The notes: a model not told the origin generated them from the letters alone. A stretch of DNA of 52,277 nucleotides from an uncultured Methanosarcinales archaeon (GCA_964455675.1 CAYVYK010000005.1:62001-114277); one strand, 5' to 3'; shown: positions 12,856 to 31,484, counted from the stretch's first letter. Numbers and translations are program-made.

Positions 12856-12866
12856 GGTGAAAGAAC

Positions 12867-13316: not shown

Positions 13317-13924
13317 GCCTTGGGAGATGTGGGGTCGTCGGCAGATTCAAACCGCTGCATCTTGGCGGAGCTCGTATGCTCGATGCTGTCTGTGCGCAGG
13401 CAGATCATGTCATTATAGGGGTCGGGAGCTCCAACAAGTATAACCTTCGTAATCCCTTTACAGCAGATGAGTCTGAGGGTATGATCCGCGCATACTTATC
13501 TCCGAGATTTGCCAACTACTCCTTCATTCACATTCCTGACTATGGGCACATTCCAGAGTATCGCGATGGCCAGCGTTGGAAACGGCATGTTATCGAGGGG
13601 TATGGCAGCCTTGATTGTTTTGTCTCGGGTAACGCTTACGTGTCTGATCTCTTGCAGGATTCTTACCCCATCATCGATTCCCCATCTCTCATTCCGCGGG
13701 ATCAGTGGATCCGCTTGAAAGCGTCGGCAGTCCGAGTCGCGATGGCAAAAGGTGACGAGTGGAGGGGAATGGTTCCTCGCGAGGTTGCGGAGTATCTGGA
13801 TGATCATGCGCTTGTCGAGCGTTTCCGTCGAGAATTTGGTCTGGAGACTCTAGCTTCGAGCGTAGCAGATCCTTCACGCCCTGAATCCTTGCGCATGGAA
13901 CGTGATCACACGTATGAAAGGTGA
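13313..13924 (+). CDS. NadM-like nicotinamide-nucleotide adenylyltransferase
   Basis: GRFKPLHLG, IGVGS, RNPFT, ASAVR...W..MVP; the HxGH motif appears as HLGG. Confidence 0.8.
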   Translation: MSLGRCGVVGRFKPLHLGGARMLDAVCAQADHVIIGVGSSNKYNLRNPFTADESEGMIRAYLSPRFANYSFIHIPDYGHIPEYRDGQRWKRHVIEGYGSLDCFVSGNAYVSDLLQDSYPIIDSPSLIPRDQWIRLKASAVRVAMAKGDEWRGMVPREVAEYLDDHALVERFRREFGLETLASSVADPSRPESLRMERDHTYER

Positions 13925-13928
13925 AACG

Positions 13929-14690: not shown

Positions 14691-14755
14691 TGGAAGGATG
14701 ATGGTTGATAGGTGATTGTTCAGCAACGACATGAAGATGGTTGGAGGTGAAGACC

Positions 14756-15730
14756 ATGTACAGTTGGGGAGATGATACAAAAGAGTGGAAGAATCCTGGA
14801 GCGTTCAAGTATGATGACGCAAAGAAGGGTTATTTAGAAAAACTAGCCGCAGAGGCGACGGAAAAAGGGCCGAGAACCTACCTTACGAAGAAACAACCGA
14901 ACATGAAGATCGTTGATCCGCTCGGTAAGGATATCAGCACGGATAGTAAGAATCCTGTGATTGTTGCAGTGGATGGCACAGGTTCGATGCAGCAGTGGCC
15001 TGCAGGCATTTTTGACCGTTTGCCCTTGCTCTATCAAACGCTCTCGCAATGGCGGGATGATGTTGAGCTTTCGTTTGCGGTTATTGGGGATGCGAACGGC
15101 CCCGATAAGTGGCCTGTGCAAATGACCCCGTTTGGCAAAGGCGTTGTGCTCGATGATTATCTGAAGGCCTTGCATGCGGAGGGTAAAGGTGGCCCCGGAA
15201 TCCGTGAAAGCTATGAGCTCTGGGCGTACTTTGTTAAGGAACATGTGAGGACGCCGAACGCAAAAGCCCCATTCTTGTTTGTTATGGGTGACGAGATGTT
15301 CTACAACCAGGTGAATCCTGAACAAGTGCAGCAGCATTTCGGTGGTGGCCTGCAGGAACCTGTAAGTTCGGTGGATGTCTGGAAATCCCTTGCAGAGCAT
15401 TATGACATTCGCTTCCTGCGAAAGTCCTATGACGGCCATGATGCAAGAATCAGGGATCAATGGGGTTCTGCCATTGGTGTTGATCATATCGTCGACGTTC
15501 CGACGCCCCAGGACATGAACGATCTGCGTATCGTTGATATCGCGATGGGCATTGTGGCGAAGGACTGGGGGAAATTCTCTCAATACCAGAAGAGCCTTGC
15601 TGCGCGTCAGGATGGCAAGAGTATCAAGACCGTGATGGACTCATTGCGTGCTGCATCAGTTGCAGGGACGATGAAATCGACATATGCGGGAAAGGAAGGA
15701 CCAAAGAGCGAAAGCCTAACGGAGGTGTGA
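14756..15730 (+). CDS. vWA-domain protein
   Basis: MIDAS-like VDGTGSM, IGD, ESYEL, FVMGDE. Confidence 0.75.
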   Translation: MYSWGDDTKEWKNPGAFKYDDAKKGYLEKLAAEATEKGPRTYLTKKQPNMKIVDPLGKDISTDSKNPVIVAVDGTGSMQQWPAGIFDRLPLLYQTLSQWRDDVELSFAVIGDANGPDKWPVQMTPFGKGVVLDDYLKALHAEGKGGPGIRESYELWAYFVKEHVRTPNAKAPFLFVMGDEMFYNQVNPEQVQQHFGGGLQEPVSSVDVWKSLAEHYDIRFLRKSYDGHDARIRDQWGSAIGVDHIVDVPTPQDMNDLRIVDIAMGIVAKDWGKFSQYQKSLAARQDGKSIKTVMDSLRAASVAGTMKSTYAGKEGPKSESLTEV

Positions 15731-16605
15731 GTATGGGGATGTCAAAAGCGTACAAGAGCAGTGGCGCGGTGTTTGAGCAGGTAAGCATGCGCTATCAACC
15801 GCAGCTACTCGAGCGTCTGCGGGCGGTGGGTGGTAAGGATATCGTCGTCGTGCAGGGAACCTATGACCACATGGAAAAATTGCTCGACACAATCAGGGTT
15901 CCCTATACCTTGATCGGTTCTGAAGATGTTGCTGGCCATAATGGAGGACGTGTGATGTTCGTGAACTGCAAAGCGTATGACACGGGCGCGCCTGTTGCCG
16001 CTGTTAAGGGATTTGTCGAGGCTGGCGGTCGCCTGGTAACAACAGACTGGGCTCTAGGATTGACCGCGAAGGCGTTTCCCCATCGGTTGGCGAAGGTGGG
16101 ACAGACGCCGGACGACGTGATCGAGATCCAGTGCCATTCGGATCTTGCACGACGTTTTGTGGGAATGAATTATGCGCAGTGTTCGCCAAAGTGGTGGCTT
16201 GAAGGTAGTAGCCACGTGTACACCATAAAGGACGGCGTGACTCCGATCATTCTCTCGGAGGAAATGAAGGAAAAGTATGGATCGCCGTATGTGGCGGTTG
16301 GTTTTCCTGCAGGCCGTGGCGAGGTGTTTCACTTCATCAGCCATCTGGAATTGCAGCGCACGCATCTTCGTAGCAAAGCTGACAAGGGAAGCCTTGATGA
16401 TTACCTAGCAAAGATGAAGATCGAGCGCACGGATGAGATGGAGGACGCGCACGTTGCGGAATTGGAGGCTGCGTTTAGCACACTGAACACGCTCGCGTAC
16501 TTGTGCCTGCCAACGCCTCTGCTTAACCAGGGCATGAATAGCGTGACAATGGACGTGCATGCGGCAGATCCATCAAAAACCATGAAGAGTGTGAAGCTCG
16601 CATGA
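15727..16605 (+). CDS. Hypothetical protein, class I glutamine amidotransferase-like fold
   Basis: FVNC...FVEAGGRLVTTDWA and G.VFHF.SH pattern; translationally coupled. Confidence 0.55.
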   Translation: MSMGMSKAYKSSGAVFEQVSMRYQPQLLERLRAVGGKDIVVVQGTYDHMEKLLDTIRVPYTLIGSEDVAGHNGGRVMFVNCKAYDTGAPVAAVKGFVEAGGRLVTTDWALGLTAKAFPHRLAKVGQTPDDVIEIQCHSDLARRFVGMNYAQCSPKWWLEGSSHVYTIKDGVTPIILSEEMKEKYGSPYVAVGFPAGRGEVFHFISHLELQRTHLRSKADKGSLDDYLAKMKIERTDEMEDAHVAELEAAFSTLNTLAYLCLPTPLLNQGMNSVTMDVHAADPSKTMKSVKLA

Positions 16606-17498
16606 GCGGCGCAATCGTGACCATCCCGCCATACGCTCCGTTTATCCGAGAGGTCGCCCTTCATCCGATGGTTACGGGACTGCGCTTGAACACGGTTATG
16701 CCGACGAAGGGCGGCCTTGAGGATCTTTTACGGCGGCTCAAGCATGATACCTTGGACAAGGATCTCTGGATTGATTTAAAATGCCGTCAGCTTCGGGTGA
16801 AAACGTTTGGGGTTCCTCCGTTCACTGAAATTGAGCTTACGCATAGGATTACTGTTGAAACACCGGTGACCGCGTACTTTAGCGATGGCCGAGAATACGC
16901 GACCGTTCTTGAAGTGGATGGCAACCGCTTGATCATGCAGGAAGGCCCAGGTCGTGTCGTTGGTCCTGGTGAGGCGGTGAATATTCCCCACCCTTCACTC
17001 AGGGTTGAGGGGTATCTCACTGACCTTGACAAGGCATACCTTGAGGCGGGGCAAAAGGTCGGCATCAGGAATTACATGCTCTCATTCGTCGAGAGCCCGT
17101 ATGATGTCCAAAGCGTGCAGAACTTGTGTAGTGACGCAAATCTTGTAGCCAAGATTGAGTCTCGTCATGGACTTGCCTACGTTGCTCATCAGTGGAAAGG
17201 GGAAGCTAGGCTCATGGCCGCGCGAGGCGATCTTTACGTCGAGGTCGGCATGCCCCATGAGATCATCCCAGCCATGGAAAGTATCATCGGGAAGGATAAG
17301 AATGCCATTGCTGCGTCGAGAATTCTTACGAGCCTATCTCGTTCTCCCGAGCCCTCATCTCCTGACATCAGCGATGTGGATAGCCTCATGCGAATGGGCT
17401 ATCGAACGCTCATGCTCGGTGATGATGTCTGCATGCGTAGGGAATCGGTCATCAGCGCGCTGAATGTACTGGACGCGATGTGTGGGAGGTATGTCTGA
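16602..17498 (+). CDS. Pyruvate-kinase-like protein (barrel and B domain only, 298 aa)
   Basis: LRLN, DLKCRQLR, SFVES, AKIES and MAARGDL; no C-terminal alpha/beta domain. Confidence 0.85.
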   Translation: MSGAIVTIPPYAPFIREVALHPMVTGLRLNTVMPTKGGLEDLLRRLKHDTLDKDLWIDLKCRQLRVKTFGVPPFTEIELTHRITVETPVTAYFSDGREYATVLEVDGNRLIMQEGPGRVVGPGEAVNIPHPSLRVEGYLTDLDKAYLEAGQKVGIRNYMLSFVESPYDVQSVQNLCSDANLVAKIESRHGLAYVAHQWKGEARLMAARGDLYVEVGMPHEIIPAMESIIGKDKNAIAASRILTSLSRSPEPSSPDISDVDSLMRMGYRTLMLGDDVCMRRESVISALNVLDAMCGRYV

Positions 17499-17500
17499 TG

Positions 17501-17878
17501 TTAAGAAACGTAGCGGTGCGCTTCGGCAATTTTGTCAGTGATATCTCCCCTCCATCCGACCATAACCGCTGGTCTATGGCCTTCTCTGACGAGGTATGGA
17601 ATAACGCGAGCGGGAATCGAGTCGCCTTCCGGGCAAAAAACGACGGTCGGGATGCTGTGTTCGTCATGCAGTCGAAGGACCGCATCGAGGTACAGGCCAT
17701 TTCGGACAACGATAAGGTCTGTGTCGCAGGGATTAAGGCTGATGAATGCAAGCGCTTCAGCTGCCCTTCCTCTTCCTGGATTGAATACTCTCGGATAATG
17801 CTCGCGCACAGCGTCAACAAGCGGCTTGTTACCATAGATCGCAGAATCCACGACAACTGCCCATTTATCAGTATTCAT
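17501..17878 (-). CDS. Hypothetical protein, possibly a degenerate CheY-like receiver
   Basis: AVVVD, DLIVV and IPTVVF strand pattern; fills the intergenic space. Confidence 0.45.
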   Translation of the reverse strand: MNTDKWAVVVDSAIYGNKPLVDAVREHYPRVFNPGRGRAAEALAFISLNPCDTDLIVVRNGLYLDAVLRLHDEHSIPTVVFCPEGDSIPARVIPYLVREGHRPAVMVGWRGDITDKIAEAHRYVS

Positions 17879-17943
17879 GGACTGATAGGGTTCAATTCAC
17901 ATTTAAAAAACCGTATGGTCCCTAATCCTCGGAGGCAGCCTGC

Positions 17944-18759
17944 ATGAGATACCTGCTTGATACTGATATTGGCTCAGATATTGATGACGCTCTCGCACTG
18001 CTCTATGCAGCATCGCAAGGGCTCCAATTTGATCTGATTACGACGGTGCATGGTGATACTGCGTGCCGTGCGCGTATTGCACGGAAGCTGTGCGATCTGG
18101 TTCGCTATGATGCGCCTGTTGTCGCAGGAGAAAGTGTGCCTCTGCGGCAGACGCATATCTACGCAACAGGGCTTGAGGGTAAAGGTTTTGTCAATGCAAG
18201 GACTCGCGTGCCAACTCATGGAGTTGATGCCCTCATAGAAGAAATCATGGCAAACAAGCATGATGTTACCATCGCCGCTATCGGTCCATTGACGAATCTT
18301 GCTCGCGTCTTTGAGCGGCATCCAAAGATTGCATCCTACATTTCTGGTATTTATATGATGGGGAATGCCATTCTCACACCAAAAACCTATTATGTGAATT
18401 ACCGTTCGCACAATTTCAAAGTAGATCCTGAAGCTGTTGATATCGTGATGGGTGCTGATGTGCCAAAGACGATTATTACTACGGAAGTCGCAAAGAAATC
18501 CGCGCTCTCGAGGGCGGTTATCCAAGCACTTGGCAGGAAGCACAACCCTGCATTCAAGTATGTGCGTAATGCTGGTATCGCGTGGATGGATTTCATCAAG
18601 TATTCAGACTGCTATCTGTATGATCCTCTCGTCGTGCACCATCTTATGGATGATGCGATAACAGCGAAGAAAACGTACGGGAATGTGCGTATAACCACAG
18701 GCGTCGATCCTGGATTTGCCGAGCATGTTGCGGGTGCGCTCAAGGGGTGGATCACATGA
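17944..18759 (+). CDS. Inosine/uridine-preferring nucleoside hydrolase
   Basis: DTDIGSDIDDALA, IGPLTNLA, N...DPEA, YDP. Confidence 0.92.
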   Translation: MRYLLDTDIGSDIDDALALLYAASQGLQFDLITTVHGDTACRARIARKLCDLVRYDAPVVAGESVPLRQTHIYATGLEGKGFVNARTRVPTHGVDALIEEIMANKHDVTIAAIGPLTNLARVFERHPKIASYISGIYMMGNAILTPKTYYVNYRSHNFKVDPEAVDIVMGADVPKTIITTEVAKKSALSRAVIQALGRKHNPAFKYVRNAGIAWMDFIKYSDCYLYDPLVVHHLMDDAITAKKTYGNVRITTGVDPGFAEHVAGALKGWIT

Positions 18760-19607
18760 AGAATGTCCTCGTTGTTTTCAAGAAAAGCGCGTATGAGTTA
18801 TACATGAATTCGCCGGATGAGGAGGTTCAGGAATTCATGCGCACAAAGGAGCAGGATGTTGCGTCCATGAAGCGTAGCCATGATGAGCAGAAGCGAACGC
18901 TCGATGTCGTGACGAATGAGTTAATGCGTACTGGTGTGCACGTTGATACGATCTATCGGGCGGATCTGTCGCCCATCCTTGATCGCGATCTCGTTGTATC
19001 CGTTGGTGGAGACGGGACCTTCCTTGAGGTGGCTCATTATGTTGATACCGTTCCGATTCTTGGAGTCAATTCTAGTCCTGGGAGCAGCGTGGGGTTCTAT
19101 TGTTGTTCAAACGCTGATACCTTTTCAAGGGTATTGGATTCGTTTGGTGACATGCCGCGCACACATGCAGAGCGACTCGCGCTCCGTATAGACGGTAAAA
19201 TCGTTCCAGAACTTGTGCTCAATGATGTGCTCTATGCCCATCCAAATCCTGCAGCGATGTCCCGCTATCAGCTGAGAATTGATGATGCTCCGCAGGTTCA
19301 GTTGCGGGACAGCGGGCTTCTTGTTTGCACCGCGGTTGGTTCTTCCGCGTGGATGTATAATGAGGGAGGGGAAGAAATGCCCATTGAATCCGAGCTTCTT
19401 CAGTATCGTCAGCGTGGAATGAGAAGTCCCCTGCACGGATACGCCTCCGCGCTTGATCTGAGATCCATCACACGCGAAGGTAGACTGTATATTGATGGTC
19501 AGCATCTCACGTATGCTCTTGGTCTTGGATCCACCGTTTCATTTCGCAGAGGAAAACCTCTGACGATCATCGGAGATATTGCAGAGAAAAGATCTCATAA
19601 TTCCTGA
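18756..19607 (+). CDS. nadK: NAD kinase
   Basis: GGDGTFL, LGVN, LND, GLLVCTAVGSSAW. Confidence 0.9.
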   Translation: MKNVLVVFKKSAYELYMNSPDEEVQEFMRTKEQDVASMKRSHDEQKRTLDVVTNELMRTGVHVDTIYRADLSPILDRDLVVSVGGDGTFLEVAHYVDTVPILGVNSSPGSSVGFYCCSNADTFSRVLDSFGDMPRTHAERLALRIDGKIVPELVLNDVLYAHPNPAAMSRYQLRIDDAPQVQLRDSGLLVCTAVGSSAWMYNEGGEEMPIESELLQYRQRGMRSPLHGYASALDLRSITREGRLYIDGQHLTYALGLGSTVSFRRGKPLTIIGDIAEKRSHNS

Positions 19608-21911: not shown

Positions 21912-23129
21912 CTAGCGAAGGCCCAAGAAAAACAGCATGACGGGAACGAGAATGCACGCCATGGTGTTTGATCGCTTTACTCCGACGAGAGGAGCGAGGA
22001 GTCCGACAGCTGTTGATGTGATGAGTACAAGGAGTCCAGGCAGTCCACAGAGGAGTATTGCGAGTACTGTCACAAATGACATGATCGCAATGCACACGCG
22101 CTGATAGTTGATCTTGCTCATGATGTTTGCAAATACCCTGGCAAGCGATAGCGTGATGAACGCAGCTATTCCTCCCGTTATGGCGCAGACGGCGAGCAGT
22201 GTCCACAGATCGTGCAGGCTGATGTGCGCGGTGAGTTCTTGCAGTGCGACGATCGCCCCGTTGCGCGGTTTGTCAAGCGCATAGAATGCGCCTAGTCCGA
22301 AGACAAAATTTGATGTGCTGATACCGCCAGTAAGTATGAGAAATCCGTACTCACCGAGTCCTCCAATAAGATACAGGCAGACTGTTGCGGCTGTTGAGCT
22401 GCCGACTCCGGGGAGCATGCCGACGAGCGAGCCGCTGAATACCGAGCCCGCTATCGCTTTGATCTGCGCGATCGGCGAAATCTTGAGTGATGCGGATGTT
22501 TCTTGTGGTGGGATCTTCATTTCTTCGTCGAGAGCCGTGATAAGTGTTGATATTCCAAACAGTCCTGAGAGGAGCGGAAAGAGCGGCTGTTCGAGCCGTT
22601 CAAAATCAAGCACAATGTACCCAAGCACTCCGGACAGAAGGATGACGAATAATCCCCACACTTTTTTCCCCCATCCTCGTTCCGTGAGGACCATGAAAGA
22701 GAGAACCCAAAGGAGGATGATTCCCATGAGCGGGGAGATGCTGTCATACACTCGTTCGAGGAACGGAATGACCGCCGGGATAATCGCAATCGTCAGGATG
22801 AGCGCGCAAAGACTGCCAAGGACAGTCAGGTAGACTGCTTCGTATCCTTTTCCTTTGAGGAGGAGCTTATGGCCTGGCAGTACGTTCAGTACGGTTGCCT
22901 CATTGGGGGCTCCAAGGAAGATGCTTGGCACAGCATCGACAAATGAGTGCGTGACCCCCATCGAGATGATGAACGCTCCAAGCTCAAGAGGTTGCGTGTA
23001 TTTCAGGAGAATTCCCGACATGCTGACGAGCAGCACGCTCACGAGATTGATATGCACGCCGGGAGTGAGGCCTGTGATAATTCCGCAGAGGATTCCAAGG
23101 ATGGTGGCAAGGAGGAGTGCGATGAACAC
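21912..23129 (-). CDS. Tripartite tricarboxylate transporter TctA family (archaeal DUF112 type)
   Basis: GLTPGVHIN, PSIFLGAP, VLPGH..L..G.G, GVKRS; start set at GTG 23129. Confidence 0.88.
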   Translation of the reverse strand: MFIALLLATILGILCGIITGLTPGVHINLVSVLLVSMSGILLKYTQPLELGAFIISMGVTHSFVDAVPSIFLGAPNEATVLNVLPGHKLLLKGKGYEAVYLTVLGSLCALILTIAIIPAVIPFLERVYDSISPLMGIILLWVLSFMVLTERGWGKKVWGLFVILLSGVLGYIVLDFERLEQPLFPLLSGLFGISTLITALDEEMKIPPQETSASLKISPIAQIKAIAGSVFSGSLVGMLPGVGSSTAATVCLYLIGGLGEYGFLILTGGISTSNFVFGLGAFYALDKPRNGAIVALQELTAHISLHDLWTLLAVCAITGGIAAFITLSLARVFANIMSKINYQRVCIAIMSFVTVLAILLCGLPGLLVLITSTAVGLLAPLVGVKRSNTMACILVPVMLFFLGLR

Positions 23130-23225
23130 GCGTACATGTCGCCAGGTATCCTTCTTATTCCTTTGACCATTTTGTCCGCAAATATTTCGCAATGCTTCAC
23201 TAATATTTACTATATAGTAAACAAT

Positions 23226-23265
23226 AAAGAAAAAAAGGAAGGCGATCCTTGCGGGATGGCCTTCC
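23226..23265 (-). terminator. Intrinsic terminator closing the stem-loop array transcript
   Basis: Minus strand GGAAGGCCATCCC-GCAA-GGATCGCCTTCC followed by TTTTTTTCTTT. Confidence 0.85.
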
Positions 23266-23270
23266 AGAGA

Positions 23271-23961
23271 GTGGCGGACATATGACTCAGAGGGTGAATC
23301 CTCGCGATTGTCCGCCACGTTGGTGTCAAATGCCCCGCACATTGTCGATATTGCGGATTTCGGGGTATACGGGGCAGCGTTGTGTATTATGCGGCACGCA
23401 CCTCCAGTTTTGAGAGGAGAACTACGATTACGCACCGCGAGTATGTCAGAGTGGCGGACACGCGACGGGTTAAGGTAACTTCGGCTTATGGCCGCCACGT
23501 TGGTGTCTGTTGCCCCACACACCTCTCATATTTAGATGCTGTATGTAGTGGGGCAACGTTGTGCGGCGCGTATGTTGACGGTTTAATCCATCCGAGCTTT
23601 GGCGCGCCGCGTGTATGTCGGAGTGGCGGGCACCTGGGGTACAGTGTGTCATAGTAATCTATGTCCGCCACGTTAATGTCTGCTGCCCCACATCACCGGC
23701 GTTGTGTTTACGAATTCGACAGTGGGGCAGCGTTGTGCGGCGCGCAGTAACTCAGAAGACTGTACCGCTTGTTTTGCGCGCCGCGTGTATGTCTTGTGGC
23801 GGTTAGTCCCGGTATTCTGTAAACGTAATGAAAAAACCGCCACGTTGGTGTCTGTTGCCCCACACGGCCTCGTCAACCAGAGTAACACATTTGTGGGGCA
23901 GATGGTATGTTGTGCGGCGCGCAACTCCACTTAATCTGTTAGGACACCAATTGCGCGCCGC
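23271..23961 (-). repeat. Stem-loop guide-like array, downstream of the Tas-like gene (12 hairpins, A-B-C x4)
   Basis: Stems GTGGCGGA/TCCGCCAC, TGCCCCAC/GTGGGGCA and GCGGCGCG/CGCGCCGC close 27-29-nt unique loops; A stems at 23271, 23451, 23623, 23796. Confidence 0.92.
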
Positions 23962-24026
23962 GTGCGTGACTGGAGAATTCCAGGATGATTCCGGAGCGGT
24001 CGCGCAGTGCACGCCGCTCGTTGAGA

Positions 24027-25757
24027 TTACACGGTCACGAGCTGCTGCTCGTCGATGCGCTTCCACTCTTTGAACAACCACGTGGCGAATTCGCCGAGCA
24101 TGTACCAGATCGCTTGCCTGCGGATGTGGCCGTCGGTGTACATCTCATGGTGGCCCTTGTCTGCGCAGTCAAACTTCTTCTTGTACAAGCGATACGGCGC
24201 GGGGAGAAATGGCGGAGTCTCGTTGGGGAACGGATGCCGGTAGCGTATACCGCGATCATAGTCAATCACGTCATCCCGCATTGCGTCGCGCCATCCATTC
24301 TTCGCGCCGGGACTGCTGATCCTCTCGATGAACCGGTGCTCCCAGTCATGCGGTGCGCGCCATTGCTTCATGCTGTCCGGGAGCTTCCAGTGCTCATCAG
24401 CCTTCGTCGCAGAGCGCCAACCACGCTCTCTGGTTGAGTCCATAATCTCGAGCATGACGACGTTGCCGTCGTTCCAGCCGAACACGCGGTCGAGCCGTTC
24501 GAGGCGATACCCACGCGGTTGTGTGGGATCGTCATGCCGGCGCCATCCGCCGCGGAGCCAATGTCCATTATGTGCACTATCGTCGGGGATTTGCAGAATC
24601 TCAGCGCATTCCCTGCAAAGAATGTCCGGGCGCTGCGTTCTGAGCTCTGCGATCAGCTCGCGTAGTCGATCGCCCCACTGAGTTCCGGGTCGCTTGCTCG
24701 CTTGCATCGCGAGCTGGTAGAGGCTCTGGCGTGCGTCGCCGCTCCAGTTCGCGATCTTTCCAACCTGTCGGTGGGGGAAGCTTCCGTCAGCACGCGGGCG
24801 AACGCCACAGTAGGATGCGAACGCTGCCGCGTTCGGGAATCGCTTGATGTTCTGAACTGCCGCGATGAGGCCGCCTGCGATGCGGGGTCCAACGCCTGTG
24901 ATGCTCGAGAGCACTGCTGTATAGATCGCGGTTCCCTCGACGGCTTCCGCAAGCGCCTTGTAGCATTCGTCCTCGTCCGCCTGCAGGAGCGCGAGCCGCT
25001 CGTTATTGGCGACAGCCGCCTCGCATGCATCGAGGATGCTGCCCTCCGGGTAGTATCCCTCCTCGTTCATGAAGATGCGCCCGTTGAAGCGCTGCCGCAG
25101 CCGTTGTTGGCATGCGATACGGGACTTCATGGCGTCCATACGATCCTGGAAACGTGCACTCACGAGGATCAGGCTCCGCTCCACAGGATCTACCCGGTAA
25201 AAGATCTCGCGCTTCTCCTTGACGAGTGTTGCGAGCAGTTCATGATCGTCGTTCTTGTCGCGCGTGCCACGCTCTTCCTTGAGCCTTGCTGGCGGAATGC
25301 GGAAGATCTCAAATCCCTTCTGTTCGCCACATCGCGAGATGGCGAACGCGAGTGCATCGCCGCTGCCGCCGAGCACCATGCCGACGATATCATCCTTCTC
25401 GAGTCCTTCGAACCTGATCGGCACATGCGTGGCTATCTCGAAGTCGTGCTTGAATCCGAGTAGGATCTTGCGTGCGCGTTCGATCGGGCGCACGAACTTC
25501 TGAGGGTGTTGCGGCACTTCCTCCGCGCTGATGCCCTTCCACCGTACCTGGTAATCGCGAAAGTTCGCAAGTTCATCCTCTTCCGTGATCTCGCGATACT
25601 TCACGGGATGGATGCCGCGCACGAAATCGAGTTCTGCCTGCTCGTCCGGAAGGTCGAGGGTTTTTGTCTTCTCACCCTGGATGATGGTGACTTGCGTCGG
25701 CCGCGGCTTGCCTTCCGCTGTCATCTTCACCCTGTGCCTGATCCCGATGTGTCTCAC
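24027..25757 (-). CDS. IS110/TIGR-Tas-like Nop-domain protein with degenerate RuvC-like N-terminus and large insertion
   Basis: ITGVGPRIAGGLIAAVQNIKRFPNAAAFASYCG (IS110/Nop-like), DGSFP.R..G...NW, C-terminal GHIRRQA.WYM..F..WLFKEW; AGGAGG RBS. Confidence 0.85.
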   Translation of the reverse strand: MRHIGIRHRVKMTAEGKPRPTQVTIIQGEKTKTLDLPDEQAELDFVRGIHPVKYREITEEDELANFRDYQVRWKGISAEEVPQHPQKFVRPIERARKILLGFKHDFEIATHVPIRFEGLEKDDIVGMVLGGSGDALAFAISRCGEQKGFEIFRIPPARLKEERGTRDKNDDHELLATLVKEKREIFYRVDPVERSLILVSARFQDRMDAMKSRIACQQRLRQRFNGRIFMNEEGYYPEGSILDACEAAVANNERLALLQADEDECYKALAEAVEGTAIYTAVLSSITGVGPRIAGGLIAAVQNIKRFPNAAAFASYCGVRPRADGSFPHRQVGKIANWSGDARQSLYQLAMQASKRPGTQWGDRLRELIAELRTQRPDILCRECAEILQIPDDSAHNGHWLRGGWRRHDDPTQPRGYRLERLDRVFGWNDGNVVMLEIMDSTRERGWRSATKADEHWKLPDSMKQWRAPHDWEHRFIERISSPGAKNGWRDAMRDDVIDYDRGIRYRHPFPNETPPFLPAPYRLYKKKFDCADKGHHEMYTDGHIRRQAIWYMLGEFATWLFKEWKRIDEQQLVTV

Positions 25758-25819
25758 GTCTGTTCCTCCTTTTCATGAACCGTGTTGTATTGGGAAGCCG
25801 TCAGGCTTGAGTGTCATGT

Positions 25820-26467
25820 GCTGCCGTGCAACTCCCAAGGTTTAGATTACTTGAGCATCAGCACGGCAGCGTGTGACGGACAGACATGGCTCTGCTTGGA
25901 CGAGTCCTCTTGTCCGCCACGTTGGTGTCAAGCGCGCCCTGCAGTTGGATTCTTTGGTAAAACAGCCCTTCGAGCAGGACGCGTGGAATCTTGTGCGGCG
26001 CGCACTCACACTATTCTCTCAAGGACCTCATTGCGCGCCGCGTGTATGTCGTGTGGCGGACACGAGCGCAATTTATTTTGAGTCGCCTCGTAGTCCGCCA
26101 CGTTGGTGTCAAGCGCTGCTCCGCACCCTCACCATTGGGGTGTATCCACTTCACAGCGGAGCAGCGTGGGGTGTAAAGTGCGGCGCGGAGATCCTCGCAG
26201 GGAAAATGGGCTCCATTATGCGCCGCGTATGTGTCGTGTGGCGGACAATGCCAACTTATGAATGACTGGGACCCTTGTCCGCCACGTTAGTGTCAAGCGC
26301 TGCCCCACATTTCCTGGCGTGGAGTAAGACCATTCCCATTGTGGGGCAGCGTGTGTGTTGTGCGGCGCACAACCACCCATGTTGGTGAAAACTCCCTTGA
26401 GTGCGCCGCGTATATGTTGTGTGCGGACAGTCCCGGTACAGCGATGAACGTAATGATAGTCCGCCAT
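25820..26467 (-). repeat. Stem-loop guide-like array, upstream of the Tas-like gene (11 hairpins)
   Basis: Same three stem classes and linkers; A stems at 25873, 26053, 26238, 26421; loops 27-30 nt. Confidence 0.92.
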
Positions 26468-26892
26468 GTTCGTGTTAACGCATCGAGGGCAAGTCTTATT
26501 CGGGGGTGACTATTCTGACTTTGGAATGTACTCCGCAGGCTAGAGAAATCTGTTTCTTCCACCGACGAAAACGCGAGTTTTCTCGCATTTCCGCTCTTCT
26601 CCATTGTGTTTTCGAGACTGCCGATCCTGTTCATTCAGAGTATTGCTGCATGTGTGCTCGCAATAGCGAGGATGATTGATCGGTCGTGGTGTTGCGCGTT
26701 CTAGCGTTAGGTTTGTTAGGGTAAAATGAGTATCACGAATCGGTAGTGAATATTTAAAGGTTGTTGCGTTTTTTCAAGTCATGAAACGGATTCAATCCGT
26801 CGCCGTAACCCTTCAATAATTTACCACTACTAGATGATGAAAAAGCAAAGGTTTAAAAATCTGGACTACCTTCTCCGTTGCGGTGATACGTA

Positions 26893-27513
26893 ATGCCTGA
26901 TAGACTTTCAGACCTTTCTATGGATGAATTGCTATGCATGGGAGCTGTTGACCTTCTACAGATCGGTCCTGGCGGCCCAGCGAGCCTTGATGCTCATTCC
27001 GCAATCACTCAGAGGGGGAGAAGCGGAGAGAGTTATGACCGCACGGCAGGCCCAAGCAAAGTGCGCCGCGGCTCAAGAGAAATCGGATTCAAGTATCCCT
27101 TGCGCATGCAGGCAGTCATTATTGACAAGCCACGATACGTCGTCCAGCGTGATATTCGGCTTCCGGTCGAGATTGAGCCAGGAAACGTGCAAGAACTTTC
27201 CTGGTGGTATCATCCTGATACGCCCGGCATCACTCGCGTCTTTAGCCGCGGCGATAATGTCGCGGAACTTGATTTTGGAATGACTATGTCATACCTGAAT
27301 GGTGCGTGGCTTGGTGATCCAAGGCAAGTTGAGCAAGTACGCCGTGCACTTGAAACAGAAGTAAGCCTTGCGCAGGCGCAACGGCCTGATAATCCGCACC
27401 GTCTAGAGATTGTTGACAATCTCCATATATTGAGGCAGATGTACAGGAATCATGAGAAACGATTGCCCATCATGCCATGTTCAGTGTATACGCTGTTTGA
27501 GCCCAAAGAATAG
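26893..27513 (+). CDS. Hypothetical protein
   Basis: TTTAAAAA TATA and GGTGA RBS; first gene of the AAA-vWA operon. Confidence 0.7.
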   Translation: MPDRLSDLSMDELLCMGAVDLLQIGPGGPASLDAHSAITQRGRSGESYDRTAGPSKVRRGSREIGFKYPLRMQAVIIDKPRYVVQRDIRLPVEIEPGNVQELSWWYHPDTPGITRVFSRGDNVAELDFGMTMSYLNGAWLGDPRQVEQVRRALETEVSLAQAQRPDNPHRLEIVDNLHILRQMYRNHEKRLPIMPCSVYTLFEPKE

Positions 27514-27520
27514 GTGACGC

Positions 27521-28432
27521 ATGAGCACAGATCCCCAAGAATCCAGAGCGAAAACGTTTGGTATCCAGACCTATCGGGTGACTGAGGATCGGCTCTATGT
27601 GCCTCAGTTTTCTCCTAGCGAAGTTGAGGAACTTCTCATCGCGTATGAGGAGAGAATTCCCGTGGCGCTCATCGGTCCAACAGGTTGTGGGAAGACAACT
27701 CTTGTGGAAAAGCTTGCGTATATGATCGGCCAGATGCATCCCGAAAATCCGTACGCTGGTACGATCACAACGATCCTTGGGCAGGAGGACATGACCGCGA
27801 CGGAATTGCGCGGCGAGCCCATTCTTGGTCCTGGAGGAACAACCAATTTCCAAGAGGGTCCATTGACGATACGCGTGAAGTACGGTGGAATTTTTTATCT
27901 TGATGAGCTCCCCGAAGCCCGGCCTGGAACGCTGACGTCCGTTCACTCCGTGACTGATTATCGAAGGACGCTAACAATCCCTGAGCTTAAGCTCGTGTTC
28001 GAGGCTCCGGATGATTTTATGTTTATGACTTCTTGGAATCCTGGTCATCAGCAGCGAAGGATGAAGATTAGCACTCGCGATCGTTTTTATCCAATCAAAT
28101 TACGTTATCATCCGCCTGAGGTCGAGGCTGGAATCATCTCCCATTACGGTAAGGTGGATGAAGATACCGCGCTTTTAATCGCGCGTGTGGGTGCGCATGT
28201 TCGAGGGGGAACTCCTGATGGAAAGCCGTATCTTGGCCAGCGCGAACTTGGTACGAGGCGGTTGATTGATGCCGCAAAATTCATCCGCCGTGGAAGGCCT
28301 GTCAGGCTTACACTGCAGCGCCTCTCCGCAAGTGTTGATGCATCATCAACAGAAGACCAGCAGGCGCTCGATGAAGCCATTGATACACTCCTTTCGGATA
28401 TGGGTCTAGAGGAGTCAGATGGCGGAAGATAA
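27521..28432 (+). CDS. MoxR-family AAA+ ATPase (CbbQ/NirQ/NorQ type)
   Basis: GPTGCGKT, EDMTA.EL.G, YLDE, D.RR.L, SWNPG, ST.DRF, TRRLI. Confidence 0.92.
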   Translation: MSTDPQESRAKTFGIQTYRVTEDRLYVPQFSPSEVEELLIAYEERIPVALIGPTGCGKTTLVEKLAYMIGQMHPENPYAGTITTILGQEDMTATELRGEPILGPGGTTNFQEGPLTIRVKYGGIFYLDELPEARPGTLTSVHSVTDYRRTLTIPELKLVFEAPDDFMFMTSWNPGHQQRRMKISTRDRFYPIKLRYHPPEVEAGIISHYGKVDEDTALLIARVGAHVRGGTPDGKPYLGQRELGTRRLIDAAKFIRRGRPVRLTLQRLSASVDASSTEDQQALDEAIDTLLSDMGLEESDGGR

Positions 28433-31400
28433 TTCTGATTTGGAATCCCGTGTCAAGGTGAAACTTTCTGCACAATCAAATGCAATTCTTGCAGAGGTCA
28501 TGGCTAGGATAGGTGATCTTGCATTGAGGAGCGGTGGGAGGCTGGTTCCCGTCGCTCAGGTAGCGATCAAGCAACGTCGTAAGAACCTTCTCTATCTGCT
28601 TAATGATCTGCCCCATCTTACGGATCGTGAGCAGGAAGTCTATATCCGCCTTCAGGGTGACATGGCAAGTACTGCTGCCGGCGTATCTCAGAGCGATGAG
28701 CTTCATATGATCTACACCAAGTTCCCTTCGGATGTCCGGGAAATGGTCGCTCGTCATTTGGACATCCTGCAGATTTCGGGGCGATCTGCACACTACCTCT
28801 GCAAGAAGATGGTTGATGGTATAGACAAGGCGCATGGTATCGACCGTCTGAGGAATTCGCTCAACCTTACATTGCGAGGATTTGACGCCTATACCGATGC
28901 GTTTCCGAGGAGGGATTTGGATAGTGAACCGCGGTCTCAAAGAGCTTCGGAGCGGAGAACGTCGCTGTTAAAAACGGCGTATAAAACGTATCACTCCCTA
29001 CCTGTTAAGGTTGAGGAGTGGGAGAACGTTTTGCAGCTTCAGGATGTTTTGCATCAGTACTATTTCGGTCAGGTAAAAGAGTGGATGGCAAAAGAGGATC
29101 CGGTTATCGTATCAGAGACTATATCCAATATTTGGAGGACACGAGGTAATTTCCTGGAGAAGAATTCTGCTCTCGAGAACGTCATTTCATGGCAAGCCCT
29201 CGCAGGTGAATCCGACGGGGCATTACTGCCAATCCTCTGGCATGGTGTTATGAAAGCTCGTGGGGAGATCGTGCATGAATGGTACGATGCGTATCGGAGA
29301 AGGATTCAGTCTAATCCGCGCCGAGCATCCATCGCGCTCGAGCATCTCGCCGCAGTACCGCGTTTGCGAGACGAGGATGAGGTTACGCGAAGATTTCGCG
29401 CGGTCACGCTATTCCTGGACGGAAAAACCGAGGATTTCTGGCTGAGCACGGAAGTCCTCAGCAATCCGAACACTCCTGAGGAATTAAAGCCAGGTCTTGA
29501 TGGAATCGCATCACTTATGGAAAAAAGTTATCACCAGATCGGAAAGAGGTCTGCCCCATCCCGTGCCTGTGAAGAAGTATCTCGTCAGATCATCGGCGAT
29601 CTTCTGCTCCAGAATACGGAGTCTAGTCTGCGCATGATGAGGCTGCTCTCTGATTATGTTCCTCGGGCAGCAAAGCAAGCAGCGCGTGGGGGTAATCCTA
29701 CACTCGAATATATGCGCGCGCTCCGTTCGTTTGCTCAATCATTTTCCGATCTCGTCAACCTCCCTGAGGAACGCGCGCGTGAAGTGCTCGGTTTGACAAG
29801 CGCTCTTCGCTCGAAGGATACTGAACAGCTATCCCGTGATATGGTTCGAAGCGTGCATGACAGGTCTGGTTCTGCCAAACTTGATTCGGTGCGCAGAAAG
29901 CTTGAGTACTATGCGAACATGCTTGCGGGAACAGACGGTGGAATCTCTATCCAGCAGGGAGACATAATCGCTGCAGAATTCAATCCTGAACGGAGAACCA
30001 CGCTGATCTCCCTGCCAAAATCCATGGGCCATTTTTCGGCGGTAGGTGATAACGAGCGGCTGTACAAGGCATTCACCGCCATGTTTGCTGGCCACTTGAG
30101 GTATGCGACGGGCTATGACAAGGAACATGTGTATATCCCAGTTCTTGAGGTCGCCGCTCAGAAGGATAATCCAGAATTATTCCTGCTCGTGCTTGAGGTG
30201 CTTGAGGAGTCGCGCATCCGCTCGCGTTTAGAAGAGGAGTATCCAGGTTCTCGTCAAGACATCGAGCTCCTCTGTCAGTATTTGCTGCAGCGGAGCGAGA
30301 CAAGACGTGCTGATTTGAGCATACGTTCAGGCGATTTATCTTCACTCATTGAGAGGAGCCTTAAGAAGGACCAAGTTCCTGACAGGGTTGGCAAGGCAAT
30401 TGAGAGGGCTACTCATAGGGGTGCTATCTTCGCTGACGCTTTGGAAGCGGCCACAGAATACTATGAAAAAATAAATCCTAGCGATCGCAGGCTTGTTGAC
30501 GAGAAAGAACTTCGTGGTCTCACTGTTGGCGGGTACGCGTCCATCGATAAGATCATCAGCGCCATGGAACGTATCGCTCGCGAGATTCCGCAAGGCCGGA
30601 AATTTCGTTATCCCGAGTTTGACGAAAAAACAGGTCTTGTGATTCCCCAGGCTACCATCGTGACGGAGACTCCCGTACCAATGATCGAGTACACGCCAGA
30701 ACTTACCGTCGCTATCGATCCGCGAATGCTTGATGTGATGATGCAGCAGTTTGAGTTGCTCGCTCCTGAGGAGATCACTAGGCTTCGTGAACAGACACGC
30801 GGCAGACTTTCCTTGCGGGATCATGCGCGGTGGTTTGCGCACAAGGCCGCAGGATCCGCATCCTGCTACCCCAAGTTTTACACAGAGAAGCGCTATAGCA
30901 CGCGCGATGTGGCGGTTGCGGTCGCGATAGAGCTTTCAGGATCAACGAGAGATTTTCTCGGACGCAGCGAATTCAAGGTTGACTACATGAGGATTATTGC
31001 TGATCATCTTGTTCGCTGTATCCAAACGCTCGGTGATGATGTTGCGCTTTTTGCGTATAACGGGCGGGGTTCTGACACGATCCGGTGTACGCCCATCCTT
31101 TCCTTTGGCCAGATGTACGACGAGAATGCTCGCCGGGCTCTGCTCGCGGTTGATCCGCGGGATAACAATCGTGATGGCGCAGTCATCCGTCATGTCGGGG
31201 AATATCACCTTGCAGAGCATCCTGCTCACACCCGTATGCTTATTAATATCACTGATGGTGTTCCTCACGATTTAGGATATGATAATGGATATGGGCTTGC
31301 GGACATCAGGCATGCGTGTAAAAAGCTGCTTGACCGTCAGGTGTACGCAATGAGACTTGTTATTGATCCGAAATTGACAGGAGAGAAAGCGAGCGCCATG

Positions 31401-31484
31401 CAGGATGAGTTCACGACTGTTCTGCATGACTTCAAGCGCGCGATCTATGAGATTCCTTGGATATACTTTCAGAAAACAAGATAA
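28419..31484 (+). CDS. Large CbbO/NorD-like vWA protein
   Basis: YPEFD, C-terminal ELSGST, NRDGAVIRH, ITDGVPHD..Y. Confidence 0.85.
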   Translation: MAEDNSDLESRVKVKLSAQSNAILAEVMARIGDLALRSGGRLVPVAQVAIKQRRKNLLYLLNDLPHLTDREQEVYIRLQGDMASTAAGVSQSDELHMIYTKFPSDVREMVARHLDILQISGRSAHYLCKKMVDGIDKAHGIDRLRNSLNLTLRGFDAYTDAFPRRDLDSEPRSQRASERRTSLLKTAYKTYHSLPVKVEEWENVLQLQDVLHQYYFGQVKEWMAKEDPVIVSETISNIWRTRGNFLEKNSALENVISWQALAGESDGALLPILWHGVMKARGEIVHEWYDAYRRRIQSNPRRASIALEHLAAVPRLRDEDEVTRRFRAVTLFLDGKTEDFWLSTEVLSNPNTPEELKPGLDGIASLMEKSYHQIGKRSAPSRACEEVSRQIIGDLLLQNTESSLRMMRLLSDYVPRAAKQAARGGNPTLEYMRALRSFAQSFSDLVNLPEERAREVLGLTSALRSKDTEQLSRDMVRSVHDRSGSAKLDSVRRKLEYYANMLAGTDGGISIQQGDIIAAEFNPERRTTLISLPKSMGHFSAVGDNERLYKAFTAMFAGHLRYATGYDKEHVYIPVLEVAAQKDNPELFLLVLEVLEESRIRSRLEEEYPGSRQDIELLCQYLLQRSETRRADLSIRSGDLSSLIERSLKKDQVPDRVGKAIERATHRGAIFADALEAATEYYEKINPSDRRLVDEKELRGLTVGGYASIDKIISAMERIAREIPQGRKFRYPEFDEKTGLVIPQATIVTETPVPMIEYTPELTVAIDPRMLDVMMQQFELLAPEEITRLREQTRGRLSLRDHARWFAHKAAGSASCYPKFYTEKRYSTRDVAVAVAIELSGSTRDFLGRSEFKVDYMRIIADHLVRCIQTLGDDVALFAYNGRGSDTIRCTPILSFGQMYDENARRALLAVDPRDNNRDGAVIRHVGEYHLAEHPAHTRMLINITDGVPHDLGYDNGYGLADIRHACKKLLDRQVYAMRLVIDPKLTGEKASAMQDEFTTVLHDFKRAIYEIPWIYFQKTR

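What the first reader, a model, noticed from the sequence alone, without database searches (positions are those of the whole stretch)
23271..26467. Higher-order A-B-C grammar: three stem classes cycle with a ~180-nt period and show compensatory changes
Seen: stems A (GTGGCGGA/TCCGCCAC), B (TGCCCCAC/GTGGGGCA) and C (GCGGCGCG/CGCGCCGC) alternate in that order, the only break being the B-then-A start of the upstream array. Linkers are class-specific (GTTGGTGTC after A, GTGTATGTC after C). A-to-A distances are 180, 172, 173 and 180, 185, 183. Stem variants covary: GTGGCGGT/ACCGCCAC, TGCCCCG/CGGGGCA, GCTGCTCCG/CGGAGCAGC, GCTGCCGTG/CACGGCAGC, GCGGCGCA/TGCGCCGC. Mismatches in the stems at 25873, ~25933 and ~23391 become G-U pairs only on the minus strand, while two others favour the plus strand. 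Inference: selection acts on RNA structure. Alternating stems could prevent neighbouring units mispairing or recombining, or the functional RNA is a three-loop ~180-nt unit, similar in length to IS110 bridge RNAs.
Basis: partly seen in the sequence, partly recalled or inferred. Interest (0 to 1): 0.8.

Follow-up and report, generated by a model that had tools for sequence, protein, structure and literature searches.

The report
TIGR guide-RNA array in an archaeon
The cycling hairpins are the guide RNAs of a TIGR-Tas system, an RNA-guided DNA-binding system described in 2025-26, so the kind is known, but this copy sits in the chromosome of a tiny archaeon rather than in the bacteria where this type is usually found.

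Summary
There are 23 hairpin units with 9-12 bp stems and 29-32 nt loops. They form two arrays (23271-23961 and 25820-26467) on either side of a 576-aa gene on the minus strand. Three stem classes cycle with a period of about 180 nt, and the stems covary strongly.

It is a stem-loop TIGR array with a nuclease-dead TasR of the "CPR clade" (Faure 2025; Xu 2026 preprint). The protein passes NCBIfam's TIGR-Tas model and fails the IS110 model. Its best solved relative is TasR 9MTY. Read on the minus strand, every loop fits the tigRNA plan: box C, a 9-nt spacer, an invariant U (23 of 23), a roughly 9-nt G-poor loop, a second 9-nt spacer, then U-G.

By homology the working unit is one hairpin, not a 180-nt triple. 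The A-B-C cycle looks like a three-unit block structure. Related arrays show similar ordered cycles, and a metagenome contig carries one extra A-B-C block.

The new point is the host. The genome is archaeal and resembles Woesearchaeota (DPANN). This TasR clade was not found in 400 order-level or 400 phylum-level relatives.

This scan has found the same kind of array before, on other DNA. Verdict: a new member of a known kind, of moderate interest.

The parts
25820..26467 (-). TIGR stem-loop array 2 (units 23 to 13 in transcription order), upstream of tasR on the minus strand; 11 units
24027..25757 (-). tasR: 576-aa nuclease-dead TasR. It has a RuvC-like N-terminal domain, a coiled coil and a Nop/IS110-type RNA-binding domain. 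A unique low-confidence insert spans aa 392-536. The GTG start is preceded by an AGGAGG-like site.
   Evidence: Pfam PF02371 E 1.9e-12. NCBIfam NF052498 scores 107.6 bits against a cut-off of 100. PDB profile hit 9MTY, E 9.7e-24. Foldseek best match 9MTY, E 3e-11. R7 and V128 sit at the positions of R8 and V126 of a 547-aa Staskawiczbacteria TasR.
23271..23961 (-). TIGR stem-loop array 1 (units 12 to 1 in transcription order), downstream of tasR; 12 units
23229..23262 (-). Terminator-like hairpin followed by U7, directly after the last unit on the minus strand. An oligo-T tract also fits archaeal termination (recalled knowledge).
   Evidence: fold -17.5 kcal/mol, z -3.9, 0 of 200 shuffles as good
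26749..26777 (-). Possible promoter region upstream of array 2. It has a sigma-70-like consensus match and, by eye, a TATA-like A/T box. Weak evidence only.
   Evidence: 3 promoter-like sites found against 1.9 expected, so not significant; reading
23271..23318 (-). unit 1, class A (loop 23280-23309)
23331..23376 (-). unit 2, class B variant (loop 23339-23368); G-U closing pair on the minus strand only
23391..23439 (-). unit 3, class C variant (loop 23400-23429); three G-U pairs on the minus strand only
23451..23498 (-). unit 4, class A (loop 23460-23489)
23509..23557 (-). unit 5, class B (loop 23519-23547)
23563..23610 (-). unit 6, class C (loop 23570-23601)
23623..23671 (-). unit 7, class A (loop 23632-23662)
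23682..23731 (-). unit 8, class B (loop 23692-23721)
23737..23784 (-). unit 9, class C (loop 23746-23775)
23796..23843 (-). unit 10, class A with a compensated stem variant (loop 23805-23834); shares both spacers with unit 23
23856..23900 (-). unit 11, class B (loop 23864-23892)
23914..23961 (-). unit 12, class C (loop 23923-23952)
25820..25870 (-). unit 13, odd class (B-like outer half, own inner half; loop 25830-25860); only 2 nt from unit 14
25873..25920 (-). unit 14, class A (loop 25882-25911); one G-U pair on the minus strand only
25934..25982 (-). unit 15, class B variant with a compensated stem (loop 25943-25973); one G-U pair on the minus strand only
25995..26041 (-). unit 16, class C (loop 26004-26032)
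26053..26101 (-). unit 17, class A (loop 26062-26092)
26114..26166 (-). unit 18, class B variant with a compensated stem (loop 26125-26155)
26180..26226 (-). unit 19, class C (loop 26189-26217)
26238..26285 (-). unit 20, class A (loop 26247-26276)
26298..26351 (-). unit 21, class B (loop 26309-26340)
26362..26409 (-). unit 22, class C variant with a compensated stem (loop 26371-26400)
26421..26467 (-). unit 23, degenerate class A, first unit transcribed (loop 26429-26458)

Best explanation
The 23 hairpins are the guide-RNA units (tigRNAs) of a stem-loop TIGR array. The array is split into two sub-arrays that flank tasR, and it is read on the minus strand, the same strand as tasR.

Each unit reads as follows on the minus strand:
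- a 9-12 bp stem closed by a C-G pair
- box C (C, then A or U, then mostly A)
- spacer A, 9 nt
- an invariant U (inner box D)
- a G-poor connecting loop of about 8 nt that often ends in AA (inner box C)
- spacer B, 9 nt
- U-G (outer box D), then the 3' stem arm

Inferred by homology to solved and tested relatives: a TasR dimer binds one hairpin, and the two 9-nt spacers pair with opposite strands of an 18-bp DNA site. The first two RuvC catalytic positions are R and V, so the complex should bind DNA without cutting it and block transcription or another DNA transaction.

The A-B-C cycle is a property of how the array is built. The array is a tandem of roughly 180-nt three-unit blocks with class-specific stems and linkers. 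Recombination between like stems or junctions adds or removes whole blocks, which preserves the order. Unlike neighbouring stems also keep adjacent hairpins from mispairing.

The locus lies in the chromosome of a DPANN-type (Woesearchaeota-like) archaeon. It was most likely acquired horizontally from CPR bacteria or a shared mobile element.
For: Protein.
- NCBIfam NF052498 'TIGR-Tas system RNA-guided endonuclease' scores 107.6 bits, above its cut-off of 100. The IS110 model NF033542 scores 65.9, below its cut-off of 140.
- The family profile hits TasR 9MTY at E 9.7e-24 and IS621 at only 0.034.
- The AF2 model (pLDDT 75.7) best matches 9MTY (E 3e-11), then IS621, then TasH.
- R7 and V128 align with R8 and V126 of a 547-aa Staskawiczbacteria TasR. 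R8 and V126 are the residues Xu et al. report at the first two catalytic positions of the dead CsTasR (preprint section 9, read).

RNA.
- Loop lengths are 29-32 nt.
- On the minus strand, loop position 12 is T in 23 of 23 units and the last loop position is T in 22 of 23. No plus-strand position is invariant.
- The middle segment is 10% G, against 31-36% G in the spacers.
- A terminator-like hairpin plus U7 follows the last unit on the minus strand.

Family context.
- In 80 homologous loci, a strict tigRNA grammar finds 488 units on the tasR sense strand against 108 antisense. Sixty-five of 80 loci have 3 or more sense units, against 12 of 80 antisense.
- No other neighbouring gene is shared with those loci.

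Block structure.
- Linkers are class-specific.
- Same-class arms are 79-83% identical, while spacers and the middle loop are at the random level of 22-29%.
- Ordered multi-class cycles also occur in L014 (a 3-class cycle), L031 (a 5-class cycle of about 425 nt) and L019.
- A 226-nt contig is present in both DNA runs at about 4x against 8-10x for the main path. It carries one more A-B-C block with other loops, bounded on both sides by the same C-to-A junction.
- Folding: a same-class neighbour gives 0.52 of designated stem pairs, a different-class neighbour gives 0.87.

Host.
- The genome has two TBP domains and a Nop5 gene on contig C1, and archaeal SSU and LSU rRNA on contig C17.
- The TctA gene lies next to array 1. 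All 10 of its listed homologues that carry an organism name are Woesearchaeota or Nanoarchaeota.
- For NadE, 10 of 12 organism-named homologues are DPANN, and the best hit has 67% identity.
- A LivM-like permease 7 kb to the right has 37-62% identical copies in 6 of 40 same-order genomes.
- Contig C5 has a tetranucleotide correlation of 0.968 with the rest of the genome.
Against: - Only 6 of the 23 units pass a strict TIGRFinder-like grammar on the minus strand, and 2 pass on the plus strand. The inner box D is U followed by any base, and the inner box C is AA in only about half of the units.
- G-U pairs barely favour the minus strand (6 against 4). The plus strand could extend many stems by G-U pairs.
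- The CUU motif reported at processing sites stands in only about 4 of 22 linkers (my reading).
- No expression or processing data exist for this locus.
- No target was found. In the own genome, tandem 9+9 matches with up to 2 mismatches number 42, against 53.8 per shuffled control.
- The native cyclic order folds no better than random orders.
- Same-class units do not share more spacer letters than different-class units (4.59 against 4.91 of 18). Any block duplications are therefore old, or loops are replaced by an unknown route.
- The extra-block contig could come from a related strain, or from a part the assembly left out.
- The direction of horizontal transfer is not shown, because the tree is unrooted and weakly resolved around the window's long branch.
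Confidence: 0.88

Rival explanations
1. The functional RNA is a three-hairpin unit of about 180 nt (A+B+C), acting like an extended bridge RNA that brings two or three DNA sites together.
For: The three-class order is strict and the period is about 180 nt. The linkers are class-specific. The extra block seen in the metagenome is exactly one A-B-C triple. No RNA data exclude this reading.
Against: Each hairpin alone has the complete two-spacer tigRNA plan. In related stem-loop systems, single hairpins are the processed units, bound 2 TasR: 1 RNA (PMC12045711 section 9; Xu et al. sections 9 and 11, read). Related arrays cycle with 2, 3 or 5 classes or with none, so three is not a family constant. 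The RuvC positions are dead and no recombinase serine was tested. Array 2 starts out of phase, with an odd unit.
Confidence: 0.05
2. An IS110-family insertion sequence, with its bridge RNA, has inserted into an older hairpin-repeat array.
For: Pfam sees only the IS110 C-terminal domain PF02371. IS110 elements are known to target repeated palindromes (recalled). The gene is richer in G+C (0.58-0.61) than the genome (0.48-0.52).
Against: The IS110 model scores below its cut-off, while the TIGR-Tas model scores above its own. The catalytic positions are R and V. There is a single copy in the genome, and the array motif occurs only here. The class phase does not continue across the gene. Arrays on both sides of tas are the norm in 80 relatives.
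Confidence: 0.02
3. The repeats act as DNA or on the plus strand (for example as recombination sites, protein-binding palindromes, or a plus-strand RNA), unrelated to TasR guiding.
For: Stems are palindromic, so both strands fold equally. On the plus strand many stems could be lengthened by G-U pairs.
Against: The invariant U after exactly 9 nt, and the U-G closure, exist only on the minus strand. Across 80 loci the grammar is strand-specific, 488 units against 108. The terminator lies on the minus strand.
Confidence: 0.03

Closest known systems
Stem-loop TIGR-TasR systems of the CPR clade, e.g. CsTasR of Candidatus Staskawiczbacteria (Xu et al., bioRxiv 10.64898/2026.09.09.750476; Faure et al. 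2025, PMC12045711)
   Same: A dead-RuvC TasR with R and V at the first two catalytic positions. Large inserts in the Nop region. Arrays of hairpins on both sides of the gene, on the gene's strand. Two 9-nt spacers per hairpin between box C and box D. A loop of about 9 nt between the spacers. Stems that differ within one array.
   Different: The host is an archaeon, not a CPR bacterium. The inner box D is reduced to U and the inner box C is weak. There is no inner hairpin between the spacers, whereas CsTasR guides have a 5-bp one. Stems fall into just three conserved classes in strict rotation. The CUU motif is rare. The protein is at most 46% identical to relatives and has its own insert of about 145 aa.
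Dual-repeat TIGR-TasR (TaTasR, PDB 9MTY)
   Same: It is the best solved relative by sequence profile and by fold. Both use the tandem-spacer guide principle.
   Different: TaTasR is an active nuclease. Its guides are 36-nt units cut from alternating edge and loop repeats, without long stems.
IS110/IS621 bridge recombinases and bridge RNA (PDB 8WT6)
   Same: A homologous RNA-binding domain and a RuvC-like N-terminal domain. The guide loops have two strands that read the two DNA strands. The bridge RNA length of about 180 nt equals the block period here.
   Different: It falls below the IS110 family cut-off. The catalytic residues are replaced. It is single-copy and not mobile. There are many independent one-loop guides instead of one two-loop RNA.
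Archaeal box C/D sRNPs (Nop5-fibrillarin-L7Ae)
   Same: A Nop-type domain and a two-guide RNA with box C/D logic. The host also has its own Nop5.
   Different: There was no Rfam hit at E <= 1 in 22000-28000. I did not see K-turn box sequences. The published relatives target DNA, not RNA.

Membership tests
TIGR-Tas (stem-loop type, CPR TasR clade) | Tas protein with a Nop/IS110-type RNA-binding domain that meets the curated family model | tested here: met
   NF052498 scores 107.6 bits against a cut-off of 100. PF02371, E 1.9e-12. 9MTY by profile, E 9.7e-24, and by fold, E 3e-11.
TIGR-Tas (stem-loop type, CPR TasR clade) | RuvC-like N-terminal domain with the catalytic positions replaced (dead nuclease) | tested here: met
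   The window's R7 and V128 align with R8 and V126 of a 547-aa Staskawiczbacteria TasR. Position 7 is R in 20 of 22 family members and position 128 is never acidic. The assignment of those positions as catalytic comes from Xu et al. section 9 (read). No residue-level superposition was done here.
TIGR-Tas (stem-loop type, CPR TasR clade) | Tandem array of hairpin units beside tas, on its strand | tested here: met
   23 units flank the gene. The minus-strand asymmetry and terminator are shown.
TIGR-Tas (stem-loop type, CPR TasR clade) | Two 8-12-nt spacers per unit, each between a box C (CNA) and a box D (UG or CG) | tested here: inconclusive
   The outer boxes are present: C-W-A, and U-G in 22 of 23 units. 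The inner box D is U in 23 of 23 units but is followed by any base. The inner box C is AA in about half of the units. Only 6 of 23 units pass the strict grammar.
TIGR-Tas (stem-loop type, CPR TasR clade) | Stems kept by compensatory change while spacers vary | tested here: met
   0 of 500 shuffles; arms 79-83% identical, spacers 22-29%
TIGR-Tas (stem-loop type, CPR TasR clade) | Processing into single-hairpin tigRNAs bound by a TasR dimer; RNA-guided DNA binding | not testable with these tools
   No RNA run is listed.
TIGR-Tas (stem-loop type, CPR TasR clade) | CUU motif at the stem base (reported processing mark) | tested here: not met
   By eye, it stands in about 4 of 22 minus-strand linkers. 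Xu et al. describe it as frequent, not as defining.
IS110 family transposase with bridge RNA | Meets the family model; DEDD catalytic residues; several copies or mobile ends; one two-loop RNA | tested here: not met
   NF033542 scores 65.9 bits against a cut-off of 140. R and V sit at catalytic positions. There is one copy in the genome. The RNA is a set of 23 one-loop units.
Box C/D sRNA | Match to Rfam C/D models; K-turn boxes | tested here: not met
   No Rfam match at E <= 1 in 22000-28000.
CRISPR array | One identical direct repeat alternating with spacers; cas genes | tested here: not met
   There are three different junction 'repeats'. The tandem-repeat finder sees nothing here. No defence-family hit was found for the neighbours except weak AAA matches.

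The most novel reading that the evidence does not exclude
This may be the first stem-loop TIGR-TasR system resident in the chromosome of a cellular archaeon (DPANN, Woesearchaeota-like). It would have been acquired across domains from CPR bacteria or a shared mobile element and kept in working order. Signs of that are an intact gene, 23 or more guides with compensated stems, and a whole-block copy-number variant in the population. Its strict A-B-C block structure would then show that such arrays grow and shrink by recombination between like stems. That is a first handle on the open question of how TIGR arrays evolve. Because the host also runs Nop5 box C/D RNPs, it offers a natural setting to test the proposed link between dead TasR and Nop5.
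Probability: 0.3. Interest if true: 0.6.

Novelty: new member of a known kind. Interest (0 to 1): 0.35.

Why it matters
The kind of system is published and NCBI already has a model for its protein, so the hairpin grammar itself is not a discovery. Two points add something.

First, the host. The main texts of both TIGR papers name phages, archaeal viruses and CPR bacteria. [quoted passage not shown] Neither main text mentions DPANN, Woesearchaeota or Nanoarchaeota. I could not see their supplementary tables, which may list such hosts. A well-kept copy in a DPANN archaeon would widen the host range across domains. It would also place a dead TasR beside a native Nop5 system.

Second, the ordered multi-unit blocks recur in related arrays, and one whole extra block is present in the source metagenome. 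Both point to block-wise recombination as the way these arrays change size. Both papers list array expansion as unsolved.

Tried and rejected
- Rfam scan of 22000-28000 at E <= 1: no match.
- Tandem Repeats Finder: nothing in the arrays, because the copies are too diverged.
- IS element reading: rejected.
- Self-targets: all four strand geometries were tried, with gaps of 0-6 and up to 2 mismatches. This gave 42 hits against 53.8 per shuffled control, and no perfect match. There is no sign of own-genome targets.
- Targets in phage or viral collections: not searched. The pattern tools would need typed, joined or reverse-complemented spacer strings.
- RNA evidence: no RNA holder is listed, so expression and processing remain untested.
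- Other arrays in the genome: a loose hairpin grammar gives 19 minus-strand and 2 plus-strand hits in the locus, against 1187 scattered hits elsewhere. Adjacent pairs among those 1187 are about as many as chance predicts. This was not a rigorous search.
- N-terminal 230 aa against PDB sequences: only chance-level hits.
- Shared neighbour genes between this locus and 80 relatives: none, apart from one marginal AAA match.
- The 1021-aa neighbour protein: not found in 40 relatives.
- Partition-function folding of whole arrays: timed out, and was replaced by MFE folding.
- MAFFT alignment A2 put the 3' arms of class B out of register. A3 still has 4 rows shifted. The in-register counts are therefore those.
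The same analysis was then run from coordinates.
Full report
**1. What is in the sequence**

Between 23271 and 26467 there are 23 hairpins with stems of 7-12 perfect pairs and loops of 26-35 nt (imperfect units read). Twelve lie at 23271-23961 and eleven at 25820-26467. A 576-aa ORF on the minus strand (24027-25757) lies between them.

On the plus strand, the first array reads A B C four times.

By my arithmetic, a perfect cycle is 6 of 34,650 arrangements for the first array. It is 2 of 4,200 arrangements for units 14-23.

Stem pairing is far above controls:
- 91.8% of 207 cells pair, against 70.5 +/- 2.3 in shuffles (0 of 500 reach the observed value).
- The covariation score is 0.616 against 0.243 (0 of 500).
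- Eight of 9 pairs change on both sides.
- Slid registers pair at 27-55%.
- Four rows of that alignment are slightly out of register. The in-register count is 195 of 207 cells on the minus strand.

The units are paralogues, so the independent events are the three classes plus about 6-7 within-class compensated variants.

**2. What the gene is**

Pfam sees only the IS110 C-terminal domain. NCBIfam separates the two families. The TIGR-Tas model NF052498 scores 107.6 bits (cut-off 100). The IS110 model scores 65.9 bits (cut-off 140).

A profile of the protein and 21 homologues hits TasR 9MTY at E 9.7e-24 and IS621 at 0.034.

An AlphaFold model has pLDDT 75.7 and pTM 0.68, with aa 392-536 unstructured. 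It best matches 9MTY, then IS621 and ISCro4, then TasH.

The window's R7 and V128 align with R8 and V126 of a 547-aa Candidatus Staskawiczbacteria TasR (L030). Xu et al. report those residues at the first two catalytic positions of the inactive CsTasR (preprint section 9, read). The gene is single-copy, and the array motif occurs only at this locus.

**3. What the hairpins are**

Two papers describe this architecture:
- Faure et al. 2025 (PMC12045711; I read sections 4, 6, 9, 10, 24 and the figure legends).
- Xu et al. 2026 (bioRxiv 10.64898/2026.09.09.750476; I read sections 7, 9, 11, 12, 13 and the extended-data legends, plus passages found by search).

They describe 'stem-loop TIGR arrays' beside Tas proteins. 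[quoted passage not shown] A CPR clade of TasR has an inactive RuvC domain and large inserts.

On the minus strand the window's loops fit this plan:
- Loop lengths are 29-32 nt.
- Positions 1-2 are mostly W-A.
- Nine variable positions follow.
- Position 12 is T in 23 of 23 units.
- A middle of about 8 nt has only 10% G and often ends in AA.
- Nine more variable positions follow.
- The last loop position is T in 22 of 23 units, and the stem then starts with G.

No plus-strand position is invariant. A hairpin plus U7 follows the last unit on the minus strand.

Among 80 loci that encode homologues, a strict grammar finds 488 units on the tasR sense strand against 108 antisense. It finds 3 or more sense units in 65 of 80 loci, against 12 of 80 antisense.

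The fit here is looser than in those relatives. Only 6 of 23 units pass the strict grammar, because the inner box D is U plus any base and the inner box C is weak. G-U pairs give little help on strand choice: 6 on the minus strand and 4 on the plus strand in the core.

**4. How it most likely works**

*Shown here:* the family membership of the protein, the guide-like anatomy of every unit, the strand asymmetry, and compensated stems.

*Inferred from published relatives, not tested on this locus:*
- One TasR dimer binds one hairpin.
- The two spacers pair with opposite strands of an 18-bp site.
- With a dead RuvC the complex binds without cutting and can repress transcription (Xu et al. sections 9 and 12).

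Natural targets are unknown. In the organism's own genome, spacer pairs match no better than shuffled ones: 42 hits against 53.8 per control at up to 2 mismatches, with no perfect match. Units 10 and 23 share both spacers (spacer B 9 of 9; spacer A shifted by one base), but their middle loops differ completely. That pattern fits selection on the guide parts.

**5. The A-B-C cycle**

Arms of one class are 79-83% identical. Spacers and middle loops are at the random level of 22-29%. The linkers are class-specific. The array is therefore a tandem of three-unit blocks of about 180 nt with a conserved scaffold and free loops.

Ordered cycles of several stem classes also occur in relatives: a three-class cycle in L014, a five-class cycle of about 425 nt in L031, and repeated multi-unit blocks in L019.

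Both DNA runs that hold the locus come from one study. In both, a 226-nt contig at about 4x depth (main path 8-10x) carries one further A-B-C block with other loops. It begins and ends in the same C-to-A junction. This fits gain or loss of whole blocks by recombination between like junctions. It could also be a strain variant or an unassembled part of the array.

Folding tests support only part of the anti-mispairing idea. A same-class neighbour leaves 0.52 of the designated pairs in the MFE fold, and a different-class neighbour leaves 0.87. Grouping by class gives 0.32 and 0.36. The native order (0.63 and 0.64) is matched by 63 of 150 and 33 of 150 random orders.

Same-class units do not share more spacer letters than other pairs (4.59 against 4.91 of 18). 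So duplications are old, or loops are replaced by an unknown route.

**6. The host**

The genome is 1.72 Mb in 25 contigs and 99% complete. It is archaeal:
- Two TBP domains and a Nop5 gene lie on contig C1.
- Archaeal SSU and LSU rRNA lie on contig C17.

The window's contig fits the rest of the genome by composition (r 0.968).

The genes around the locus are of DPANN type:
- TctA lies next to array 1. All 10 of its listed homologues with organism names are Woesearchaeota or Nanoarchaeota.
- For NadE, 10 of 12 organism-named homologues are DPANN, and the best hit has 67% identity.
- A permease 7 kb to the right has 37-62% identical copies in 6 of 40 same-order genomes.

The TasR clade profile was found in none of 400 other genomes of the same order and none of 400 of the same phylum at E <= 1e-10. 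The two samples may overlap.

In a quick tree of the window protein and 70 of the 80 loci, the window TasR sits inside the CPR radiation. It has a long branch (1.29) and only weak sister support (SH-aLRT 82). Ten loci were dropped for a missing N-terminus or a length under 330 aa. The tree is unrooted.

The gene is richer in G+C (0.58-0.61) than the genome (0.48-0.52). Horizontal acquisition is the simplest reading, but its direction is not shown.

**7. Comparison and verdict**

The locus is a member of the stem-loop TIGR-TasR kind (see the membership table). It works like CsTasR systems by inference.

It differs from CsTasR systems in these ways:
- its archaeal host
- the reduced inner boxes
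- the lack of an inner hairpin
- three conserved stem classes in strict rotation
- a rare CUU motif
- a private insert of about 145 aa

This scan had already met stem-loop TIGR arrays with multi-hairpin periodicity in other genomes. Those notes agree with this reading and were found after I had reached it.

Neither paper's main text mentions DPANN hosts. Their supplementary tables were not visible to me and may bear on the claim of a new host.

Noticed in passing
G000 contigs C1 and C17; window flanks 10759-12762 and 21912-23150: The genome is archaeal. It has TBP, Nop5 and archaeal rRNA, and its flanking genes have closest named relatives in Woesearchaeota or Nanoarchaeota. The TasR clade itself is otherwise found in CPR bacteria.
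   Followed up: yes
window 23664-23692, 23880-23929, 26019-26065 (pieces of one 226-nt metagenome contig): Both DNA runs hold a contig at about half the depth of the main path. It encodes one more A-B-C block with different loops and is bounded by the same C-to-A junction at both ends. It is either a block copy-number variant or an unassembled block. Part of its B loop resembles the loop of unit 11.
   Followed up: partly
window 24150-24584 (aa 392-536 of TasR): An insert of about 145 aa is absent from all 21 aligned homologues and is predicted with pLDDT under 50. It starts near a CxxC-like motif that some homologues also carry.
   Followed up: no
window 26893-31484: Three genes lie next to array 2: a 206-aa protein, an AAA_5 ATPase of 303 aa, and a 1021-aa protein. 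Apart from the ATPase they have no family match. The 1021-aa protein was not found in 40 relatives. This may be an accessory island that arrived with, or beside, the TIGR locus.
   Followed up: partly
window 23796-23843 and 26421-26467: Units 10 and 23 carry the same two spacers but unrelated middle loops and different stem variants. Unit 10 also has a T6 run on the minus strand, which could act as an internal archaeal terminator.
   Followed up: partly
L014 5424-6621; L031 363-1540; L019 5589-6914: Related CPR arrays also show ordered cycles of several stem classes (3-class, 5-class and multi-unit blocks). Some have their own promoter-like and terminator-like elements between blocks.
   Followed up: partly
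window 7033-19604: A cluster of NAD salvage and turnover genes: an NrtR-like Nudix regulator, nicotinate phosphoribosyltransferase, NAD synthase, an archaeal-type NMN adenylyltransferase, a nucleoside hydrolase and NAD kinase.
   Followed up: no
G000:C5:1-10000 and 50001-60000 (outside the window): Two 10-kb stretches of the same contig have low G+C (0.42) and a poor tetranucleotide fit to the genome (r 0.54-0.57). They may be foreign islands.
   Followed up: no
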